A stretch of DNA of 64,000 nt from Octopus vulgaris. Lineage: Eukaryota. A program made the translations under genes and the position numbers. The DNA is taken from assembly GCA_951406725.2 (NCBI GenBank), contig OX597822.1, positions 112,902,001-112,966,000 of the forward strand, read 5' to 3'. Shown here one piece after another: positions 36,806 to 37,988 of this stretch. Every line of letters begins with the position of its first letter. The stretch's first letter is position 1. A model generated the notes under the pieces. The model was not told where the DNA came from. It worked only from the letters and a program-made list of their open reading frames with translations, and did not search any database.

Positions 36806-37988
36806 ATGGCTAGCCACCAAAAATCCAACAAAAACTGGTCTGATAATGAAGTCGACGTTCTTATCAACACATGGCATGGCCTTACCGAAACAGAGAGCAT
36901 AGGTGCTTCGTGTCTGAACGAAATTACCAAACGAACAGTTCACCATTTGCAAACTCGATCTGAACAGCAGATCCAAAATAAATTAAAACAAATCGAAGTT
37001 GCTTTTAAATTAATAAATAAACACTTCGATAAACTGAGATGTGTTTTCTCTTCGAACGCATCACCGGCGCAACAACAACAACAACAACCTCAACAACAAC
37101 AAACTCAGCGGCAACAACAACAACAACAGCTACAGCAACAACAACAACTTCAGCAGCAACAACCTCAGAGGCAACAACAACAACAACAGGATGAACCACT
37201 CCTTGATTCATCTACAATGGCCGATTTGCTAAATGAAACGATTGACCCCCCAGTCATCAGGGTCACACAGCAGGAAGCACCACCCCTTCCTTTCACTGCC
37301 CCAGCAGCTCAATCATCATCATTGTCAACACCATCTCCTCTATCGACAAACATCTTTGTCTTGGAATCGACCTCCTCAATCATTACCACTGTCAACATCT
37401 CTTCTACCTACTACTACTACTACTACAGCTACTACTACTAATGCTATCTCAAGGAATTTACCTCCTACAGGTCACAAAGGTCGCCAAAACTTCAACAAAC
37501 TATCATCTACACCTTTCACAGCTCACACACACACACGCACCTACACACCCACTCGAAACCCCATCATTTGCCGATATTCTCTTCGCCATAGACTGTGCAC
37601 TGATAGAGACTGCAAATTCACCCATTTACCTGGAACAAAACGCTCTATCCCCACAAACTACAACAGCAACCACCATAATACAACATCACCACAACCACCA
37701 ATATCTCAAACAAGGAATCCCCAAATCTGCCGCTATTCCCAGCGAGACAGATTGTGCTTGCACAGGGATTGCCCCTTTACCCATCTCCCGGGGACTCGTC
37801 GGACATTTAAAGATAACCACTCACATAAAAATAGCCGCGGCCACAGTCACCTGCGGTTCCCTAGACAGGAAACCACCTCTTCTTCCTCTTTTTTAGCTAT
37901 AATGAATCTAGCAAAAGAACTGGAAAAAAACATCCGAGCTATCACCCACCGCCATCCACCACTATTACCCCACTACACATGCCATTAA
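36806..37988 (+). CDS. LINE ORF1 (one frameshift near 37405): Myb/SANT-like domain, polyQ, two CCCH zinc fingers
   Basis: NWSDNEVDVLINTW...RSEQQIQNKLKQI; two C-x8-C-x4-C-x3-H repeats; 393 aa if one base is removed. Confidence 0.8.

What the first reader, a model, noticed from the sequence alone, without database searches (positions are those of the whole stretch)
36806..37988. CR1 ORF1 with Myb/SANT-like domain, polyQ and tandem CCCH fingers
Seen: an N-terminal W-S..E...LI..W / RS..QI.NKLK signature, a CAA/CAG polyQ, an S/T/P linker, and a duplicated TRNP.ICRYS.R.RLC..RDC.FTHLPGT.R. Knowledge: commonly described CR1/L2/jockey ORF1 modules are RRM, CCHC, PHD, coiled coil and esterase. Trihelix Myb/SANT domains are typical of Harbinger proteins and MADF-type factors, and CCCH fingers bind RNA. 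Inference: a captured module giving ORF1p both DNA and RNA binding, perhaps for targeting or autoregulation. I do not recall this combination being described.
Basis: partly seen in the sequence, partly recalled or inferred. Interest (0 to 1): 0.75.

Follow-up and report, generated by a model that had tools for sequence, protein, structure and literature searches.

The report
LINE ORF1 with Myb and CCCH
A complete copy of an abundant jumping gene (a LINE retrotransposon, likely of the CR1 group) has a first gene that encodes a Myb/SANT-like domain predicted to bind DNA and two selectively conserved CCCH-type zinc fingers predicted to bind RNA, in place of the usual RNA-packaging modules, which would let one protein hold the element's RNA and grip chromosomal DNA.

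Summary
Bases 36326-41084 are one full-length APE-RT LINE between 11-bp direct repeats.

The ORF1 N-terminus matches Pfam Myb_DNA-bind_4 (E 1.2e-5; 26.0 bits against a cut-off of 27). One of three relatives at 41-43% identity passes the cut-off (31.7 bits), and two also carry polyQ behind the domain. Fold searches were inconclusive.

The two C-x8-C-x4-C-x3-H repeats share 24 of 31 residues but only 57 of 93 bases (pS 0.98, pN 0.20), so they are under purifying selection. Their Pfam CCCH matches stay below cut-off.

ORF1 is broken in this copy. One other run holds a contig with 32 more bases at 37341 (a loose end in a second run agrees), which joins the Myb frame to the finger frame. Intact ORF1 is therefore probably about 404 aa, not 393.

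No Myb/SANT or CCCH ORF1 turned up in ten full-text searches or in a 448-element ORF1 survey; Repbase and Dfam were not checkable. DNA and RNA binding, the exact clade and the donor are untested. This is a new ORF1 variant in a group known for swapping ORF1 modules. Interest 0.5.

The parts
36315..36325 (+). left copy of an 11-bp direct repeat, probable target-site duplication (a TACA microsatellite word)
   Evidence: the same 11-mer occurs 120 times on the + strand of the window, so it is weak alone; a loose end of 2 contigs in run X11 at 36325 marks a breakpoint there too
36326..36805 (+). 5' UTR, 480 nt, 45% A, no ATG
   Evidence: 0 ATG against a mean of 3.3 in 2000 dinucleotide shuffles, 1.65% of which had none
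36806..37988 (+). ORF1, broken in this copy; about 404 aa in intact copies (inferred)
36830..37057 (+). Myb/SANT-like (trihelix-type) domain: Pfam match at residues 9-73, long third helix to about residue 84
37067..37189 (+). polyQ tract (33 Q in 41 aa)
   Evidence: a Q run follows the domain in P0003 and P0004 too
37190..37550 (+). S/T/P-rich linker; it holds the break at 37341, where other copies carry 32 more bases
   Evidence: (tables 5c and 7)
37551..37643 (+). CCCH-type repeat 1 (C-x8-C-x4-C-x3-H at 37569-37625)
37710..37802 (+). CCCH-type repeat 2 (C-x8-C-x4-C-x3-H at 37728-37784)
37803..37988 (+). basic, His-rich C-terminal tail with a short amphipathic-looking segment (by eye); no Pfam family
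37979..40997 (+). ORF2 with its own ATG, overlapping the end of ORF1 by 10 nt; APE endonuclease and RT; one extra base at 39614 in this copy
   Evidence: the base at 39614 is left out in contigs of 4 of 4 runs (table 4)
40998..41084 (+). 3' UTR, 87 nt, with two predicted hairpins and a tail of two 10-nt units (41066-41085)
   Evidence: (z -2.1; 7 of 200 shuffles fold as well)
41085..41095 (+). right copy of the 11-bp direct repeat

Best explanation
This is the first gene of a full-length, high-copy LINE retrotransposon whose protein carries a Myb/SANT-like domain and two conserved CCCH-type repeats, and it likely works as a bridge: the repeats are predicted to bind zinc and hold the element's own RNA, and the Myb/SANT-like domain is predicted to grip double-stranded DNA or chromatin, which would help bring the RNA-protein particle to the chromosome before ORF2 cuts and copies. 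Shown: element boundaries, ORF layout, the sequence match of the N-terminal domain, purifying selection on the fingers, and absence of RRM, CCHC, PHD, esterase and Tnp22 matches. Inferred from other runs: the two parts are one ORF of about 404 aa. Inferred from family knowledge: the fingers replace RRM/CCHC as RNA binders; the polyQ and S/T/P linker supply flexible self-association; the trihelix binds DNA with its third helix, probably without strict target specificity. Untested: every binding activity.
For: Myb domain: PF13837 at E 1.2e-5, the only family under E 0.05. Relative P0003 scores 31.7 bits, above the cut-off, and 3 of 4 alignment members match at E<=0.1. In ESM Atlas the top hit is a Myb_DNA-bind_4 cluster at 0.91, recognition 3091, and 10 of the 10 best family-bearing hits share the family or clan. 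hhalign to six host repeats gives probability 95% over 61 columns. Both AlphaFold models have three main helices with a long third. 11 of the 14 invariant columns among 4 sequences lie in residues 51-82, a stretch with 7 K/R against 3 D/E. Fingers: pS 0.98 against pN 0.20, Fisher p 4e-12; 15 K/R against 4 D/E; aromatic residues two places after the first and third Cys (a CCCH RNA-stacking feature, recalled); the weak Pfam and Atlas hits are mainly CCCH families. Part of the element: summed depth in run X7 rises from about 1e4 over the Myb region to 4-9e5 at the 3' end, as 5' truncation predicts; contigs of X2 and X11 cover 36758-37058 with 3 differences; an X8 contig spans 37759-38240 (finger 2 into ORF2) with none. 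Precedent for function: the Harbinger Myb-like protein binds transposon ends and imports the transposase (PMC9392472, passages); the R2 Myb domain binds target DNA (PMC12503042, passages).
Against: The window's domain is 1 bit under Pfam's cut-off; P0004 is weak (E 0.024) and P0005 does not match (19 of 1000 shuffles reach its score). The models are of low confidence (pTM 0.36 and 0.42) and gave no significant fold match. The first Atlas hit shares 165 features, under the tool's guide of 170. The helix-3 aromatic residue of many trihelix domains (recalled) is Leu here, and the whole domain is nearly neutral (10 K/R, 9 D/E). CCCH matches are all below cut-off, and the Atlas scores are under 0.9 with recognition 2031. 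No relative of the fingers was found among proteins of 138-440 aa. P0003 ends at 157 aa and P0004 at 122 aa, both without fingers, and neither has a known context. So Myb plus CCCH in one ORF is shown for this family only, through one printed joint in one run. Conservation of helix 3 is inflated because the relatives were found by similarity. The depth figures are summed contig depths, not copy numbers.
Confidence: 0.42

Rival explanations
1. The Myb/SANT-like domain is a protein-contact module: it multimerises ORF1p, binds ORF2p or histone tails, or aids nuclear import, in place of the coiled coil or PHD of other ORF1s. The fingers bind RNA.
For: ORF1ps typically multimerise through a coiled coil (PMC3905857, passages), and I saw no long coiled coil here by eye. 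SANT/myb/trihelix motifs bind proteins as well as DNA, and the Harbinger protein binds its transposase (PMC9392472). The domain is nearly neutral overall. The last helix is long. PHD, a chromatin reader (recalled), is common at this position in CR1/L2 ORF1s.
Against: The best-conserved residues are basic or polar positions of the third helix, which is the DNA-recognition helix of Myb-type folds (recalled).
Confidence: 0.25
2. ORF1p is a transcription regulator of its own element: the Myb domain binds the internal promoter in the 5' UTR, polyQ acts as an activation region, and the fingers bind the transcript.
For: A DNA-binding domain followed by a Gln-rich tract is a common transcription-factor layout (recalled). 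The Myb-then-Q order is kept in P0003 and P0004. The Harbinger Myb-like protein binds its own element's ends.
Against: No clear repeated or palindromic site shared by the UTRs among the 20 of 46 direct and 25 of 33 inverted repeats shown. The Q run is only 4-5 residues in the relatives against 33 here.
Confidence: 0.18
3. The Myb domain gives sequence-specific targeting, for example to TACA-type microsatellites, as the R2 Myb domain does for rDNA.
For: This copy sits in a TACA word. R2 uses zinc fingers plus Myb to recognise its site.
Against: The word occurs 120 times on one strand of the window. Loose ends near the 3' end are many and agree poorly (90 contigs at 41061, agreement 0.56), though these include related families and the tool skips repeats. 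In R2 the domain is in the RT protein, not in ORF1.
Confidence: 0.08
4. The Myb likeness is a chance or convergent helical match, or the N-terminal part is a passenger that no longer functions.
For: Below the Pfam cut-off; no fold match.
Against: A relative passes the cut-off; the domain is kept at 41-43% identity in three other proteins; it starts at the first ATG of the element; 2 of the 3 differences shown in the domain are synonymous when taken singly.
Confidence: 0.07

Closest known systems
CR1/L2-lineage LINEs with ORF1 types I-V (Metcalfe and Casane 2014, PMC4120745)
   Same: Two-ORF APE-RT layout and a modular ORF1; PHD-bearing subtypes also put a chromatin-type module at the N-terminus.
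   Different: Their Table 1 (448 elements) lists only RRM, CCHC, PHD, Tnp22, coiled coil, esterase and zf/lz. 'Myb', 'SANT', 'CCCH' and 'MADF' occur 0 times in the main text, and 'Myb' and 'CCCH' 0 times in 3 supplements. This ORF1 would fall in type V (unclassified).
Harbinger/PIF Myb-like proteins and the derived MSANTD1-4/NAIF1 (PMC9392472)
   Same: A Myb/SANT-like trihelix domain on a separate helper ORF beside the catalytic ORF of a mobile element.
   Different: They belong to DNA transposons and bind terminal inverted repeats and the transposase. This one lies in a retrotransposon without inverted ends and is fused to CCCH repeats. Descent from Harbinger was not tested.
R2 retrotransposon N-terminal zinc fingers plus Myb domain (PMC12503042)
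   Same: A non-LTR element that uses a Myb domain and zinc fingers to contact DNA; in A-clade R2 one finger also engages RNA.
   Different: In R2 they are part of the single RT-RLE protein and specify an rDNA site, and the fingers are of another type (recalled). Here they are in ORF1 of an APE element with no shown site specificity.
Cellular CCCH zinc-finger RNA-binding proteins (Pfam zf-CCCH, Nab2-type zf-CCCH_2, zf-C3H1)
   Same: Tandem Cys3His repeats with conserved aromatic and basic residues.
   Different: Spacing is C-x8-C-x4-C-x3-H rather than x8-x5-x3; all Pfam scores are below cut-off; the repeats are 53 aa apart.
Zepp-like L1 of Coccomyxa with HTH_1 in ORF1 (PMC5203782, section 16)
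   Same: A published case of a DNA-binding-type domain match in a LINE ORF1.
   Different: A LysR-type HTH in an algal L1; no Myb or CCCH.

Membership tests
APE-type non-LTR retrotransposon (LINE) | ORF2 with an APE endonuclease followed by RT | tested here: met
   Exo_endo_phos_2 E 2.5e-14; RVT_1 E 2.3e-31; best PDB sequence hit is L1 ORF2p, E 2e-12
APE-type non-LTR retrotransposon (LINE) | no LTRs; target-site duplication, 3' tail, 5'-truncated copies | tested here: met
   11-bp flanking repeat (low complexity); tail of two 10-nt units; depth rising towards the 3' end; no long terminal repeat among those shown
CR1 group (CR1, L2, Rex1, Daphne, Crack, Kiri) | placement in an RT phylogeny or RTclass1 | not testable with these tools
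   No reference RT set could be brought in. ORF2 motifs and the region after RT look CR1-like by recall only. The gastropod supplement has similar motifs but no clade labels.
CR1 group (CR1, L2, Rex1, Daphne, Crack, Kiri) | ORF2 without RNase H or a C-terminal CCHC; short 3' UTR ending in short tandem repeats (feature list recalled) | tested here: met
   Pfam finds only RVT_1 in the 3' half; 87-nt UTR and tandem tail
ORF1 types I-IV | RRM+CCHC, Tnp22, PHD or esterase domain | tested here: not met
   No such Pfam hit at E<=10 in either ORF1 part; no C-x2-C-x4-H-x4-C motif. HMM-HMM search for a diverged RRM was not possible, but no unassigned stretch looks globular and long enough (by eye).
Myb_DNA-bind_4 (PF13837) | score at or above the gathering cut-off of 27 bits | tested here: inconclusive
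   window 26.0 bits, P0003 31.7, P0004 15.5, P0005 no match
Myb_DNA-bind_4 (PF13837) | three-helix fold with a long third helix | tested here: inconclusive
   Helix pattern fits. Foldseek has no match at E<=0.001; rows include homeodomains and the Zeste DNA-binding domain at E 1.8-3.2. VIA best Z 5.6, unrelated helical chains.
Myb_DNA-bind_4 (PF13837) | DNA binding | not testable with these tools
   needs a bench assay
CCCH zinc finger | three Cys and one His in finger spacing, conserved | tested here: met
   C-x8-C-x4-C-x3-H twice; all 4 ligands kept while synonymous sites are saturated
CCCH zinc finger | match to a named Pfam CCCH family above cut-off | tested here: not met
   best: Nab2-like 16.1 bits against 27; zf-C3H1 14.7 against 20.9
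Harbinger Myb-like proteins | phylogenetic nesting among Harbinger Myb-like proteins | not testable with these tools
   only one non-family hit (a fish multi-Myb protein, P0006, E 1.7e-4)

The most novel reading that the evidence does not exclude
A lineage of LINEs replaced its whole ORF1 toolkit: it took a Harbinger-type trihelix DNA-binding domain and a CCCH RNA-binding pair, making an ORF1p that binds RNA at one end and specific DNA at the other. ORF1p, not ORF2p, would then choose where the element lands or switch its promoter, and the module would have crossed from a DNA transposon to a retrotransposon.
Probability: 0.15. Interest if true: 0.8.

Novelty: new variant of a known kind. Interest (0 to 1): 0.5.

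Why it matters
What ORF1p does beyond RNA chaperoning is an open question (PMC12503042, passages). This ORF1 separates the candidate jobs into small, testable modules: an 80-aa predicted DNA or chromatin binder and a pair of 31-aa predicted RNA binders under clear selection. If the trihelix binds DNA, a LINE ORF1p would act on chromatin directly. If it descends from Harbinger, it would be a module exchange between DNA transposons and retrotransposons. CCCH repeats would be a further solution to LINE RNA packaging besides RRM, CCHC and basic peptides. The surprise is tempered because CR1/L2 ORF1s are known to shuffle domains.

Tried and rejected
No assembly is held for this window, so other genomic copies could not be aligned and no between-family dN/dS for the Myb part was computed.

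Protein searches. The finger region gave 0 hits from 2 candidates (138-440 aa). The Myb alignment gave 0 hits from 6881 candidates of 276-2000 aa (weak evidence by the tool's note) and only P0003-P0005 from 974 candidates of 42-275 aa. PDB sequence searches gave only insignificant hits (TnsA E 0.08, RecX E 0.3), rejected.

Locus scans. The Myb alignment found nothing in metagenome, genome or viral contigs. The RT half found nothing in viral contigs and one distant 24% match, L001, in metagenomes, not used.

Fold searches of two low-confidence models were inconclusive. A complex prediction of the Myb domain with the APE domain returned no answer. No RNA holder was listed on record as RNA, so expression is not addressed.

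Rejected readings: a single extra base in the ACT repeat as the ORF1 break (replaced by the 32-nt difference); the third open frame 37246-37896 as the coding frame (5 synonymous against 22 non-synonymous changes); TFIIA, DDHD and similar Pfam rows, which are driven by polyQ; DUF5714 on the fingers (below cut-off, Cys-driven). Look-ups of earlier findings by sequence and place were empty.

Full report
THE ELEMENT. The finding lies in one complete LINE at 36326-41084, + strand, 4759 bp. An 11-bp direct repeat flanks it (36315-36325 and 41085-41095). The word is a TACA microsatellite that occurs 120 times on this strand of the window, so alone it is weak. It does sit directly behind a 3' tail of two 10-nt units, and run X11 shows a breakpoint at 36325 (table 7). 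The 480-nt 5' UTR has no ATG (1.65% of 2000 dinucleotide shuffles have none), so 36806 is the first start codon. ORF2 has its own ATG at 37979, overlapping ORF1 by 10 nt, and encodes APE and RT. It carries one extra base at 39614 that contigs of all 4 laid runs lack. Twenty of 24 listed runs, from 10 studies and three coded organisms, hold 73-80% of the sampled words. Summed depth climbs steeply towards the 3' end in all four runs laid, as expected of a high-copy, 5'-truncating LINE; these depths are not copy numbers. Of 217 variant rows, 40 were printed. I set aside 3 in the flank and 4 clustered ones; of the remaining 28 in ORF2, 22 are synonymous, and of 5 in ORF1, 4 are synonymous when taken singly. 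The host is not given. The microsatellite-rich DNA reminds me of octopus genomes (recall, not tested). The CR1-group label rests on layout and recalled motifs; no RT tree was possible.

THE BREAK IN ORF1. The reads point elsewhere. Run X2 has a contig joint at 37341 with 31 letters between and place 37341 on both sides (depth 69.8, bin depth 77.4), and two contigs of X7 have a matching loose end there. Taken literally this is 32 more bases: 536+31+648 = 1215 nt = 405 codons. Place 37341 is the second base of a codon in the Myb frame and the first in the finger frame, and neither part has a stop. The added letters read by eye as a Thr-rich stretch without a stop. This copy has therefore probably lost 32 nt, and the two modules belong to one ORF of about 404 aa. 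The link rests on one printed joint; no listed contig spans the whole ORF, because the tool skips the polyQ and ACT repeats.

THE MYB/SANT-LIKE DOMAIN. Residues 9-73 match PF13837 at E 1.2e-5 and 26.0 bits, with a cut-off of 27. A search of 1.84 billion representatives found 4 proteins at E<=0.001. Three are unnamed Logan proteins at 41-43% identity, and one is a fish protein with six Myb_DNA-bind_4 repeats. P0003 passes the cut-off (31.7 bits), P0004 is weak (E 0.024) and P0005, a fragment, does not match. P0003 and P0004 have a Q run after the domain, and P0003 continues in an S/T-rich stretch. P0003 lies on a 4569-bp contig, near the length of this element, but its context could not be read. 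ESM Atlas gives Myb/SANT clusters at 0.91 with 10 of 10 family hits agreeing, and 165 shared features, slightly under its guide value. A profile of the fish repeats scores the domain at 21.1 bits, with 0 of 1000 shuffles reaching that, and hhalign gives 95%; that template was found with this query. AlphaFold gives three main helices with a long third at low confidence (pTM 0.36 and 0.42). No fold search gave a significant match. I put the probability that the domain is a true Myb/SANT-like trihelix at about 0.88.

THE FINGERS. The two 31-aa repeats share 24 residues but only 57 of 93 bases; 22 of the 36 differences are at third positions. Nei-Gojobori pS is 0.98 and pN 0.20 (p 4e-12), and no other frame shows this. 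The duplication is therefore old and the protein sequence has been kept. The spacing is C-x8-C-x4-C-x3-H. Pfam hits to Nab2-type and zf-C3H1 families are below cut-off, and the Atlas hits are zf-CCCH clusters at 0.86 or less, a lead only. No relative was found among proteins of 138-440 aa. There is no CCHC knuckle and no RRM, PHD, esterase or Tnp22 match. Zinc binding is likely; RNA binding is inferred from the class (about 0.65).

HOW IT LIKELY WORKS. ORF1ps package the element's RNA and multimerise (PMC3905857, passages). Here the only candidate folded RNA binders are the basic finger pair. The N-terminal domain belongs to a class that in Harbinger binds transposon DNA and imports the transposase (PMC9392472, passages); in R2 a Myb domain reads the target site (PMC12503042, passages). 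Its best-kept part is the basic third helix. I favour a bridge: fingers on the RNA, trihelix on DNA or chromatin without strict specificity, joined by a flexible Q/S/T/P linker (0.42). Rivals are a protein-contact role (0.25), autoregulation at the 5' UTR (0.18), site targeting (0.08) and a false or dead domain (0.07). Nothing here measures binding.

COMPARISON WITH PRINT. PMC4120745 (parts 1-2 of 6 read, term search of the whole text, 3 supplements searched) lists no Myb or CCCH among 448 Jockey-superfamily ORF1s. PMC13343379 (passages, section 6, 1 supplement) and PMC5203782 (passages, section 16, 2 of 3 supplements) have 0 occurrences of Myb, SANT or CCCH; the latter reports an HTH_1 match in an algal L1 ORF1. 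PMC9115989, PMC11203168 and PMC10294476 (passages; 12 of 33 supplements of the last) have 0 occurrences of Myb. Ten full-text searches (listings and abstract starts only) showed no paper on such an ORF1. Repbase Reports, Dfam, most subscription journals and the unsearched supplements could hold a description. Earlier scan notes report SAND and SH3 domains in other LINE ORF1s (unchecked), which suggests that such captures recur.

VERDICT. A real, selected and apparently undescribed ORF1 architecture in a known kind of element: new variant of a known kind, interest 0.5.

Noticed in passing
window 41091-41213 (+): An open stretch right after the insertion resembles the C-terminus of a restriction-like endonuclease of R2/Dong-type LINEs (recall); Pfam gives only AF1548-like_C at E 0.083. 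The element may have landed next to an older LINE remnant.
   Followed up: partly
window 62924-63340 (-): 3' remnant of a different, related LINE family, 37% identical to the ORF2 C-terminus, flanked by TA microsatellites.
   Followed up: partly
window 56646-57365 (+): A 240-aa open frame that resembles a Penelope-like element fragment (recall); Pfam gave only a sub-cut-off VtrA_C row.
   Followed up: partly
window 36250-36325: The upstream flank is itself part of a high-depth repeat in all four runs; not identified.
   Followed up: no
window 37979-37988: ORF2 has its own ATG 10 nt before the end of ORF1, which suggests re-initiation rather than a frameshift; I saw no slippery heptamer at the overlap by eye.
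   Followed up: no
window 36576-36760: The 5' UTR has two long A-rich tracts just before the ORF1 start.
   Followed up: no
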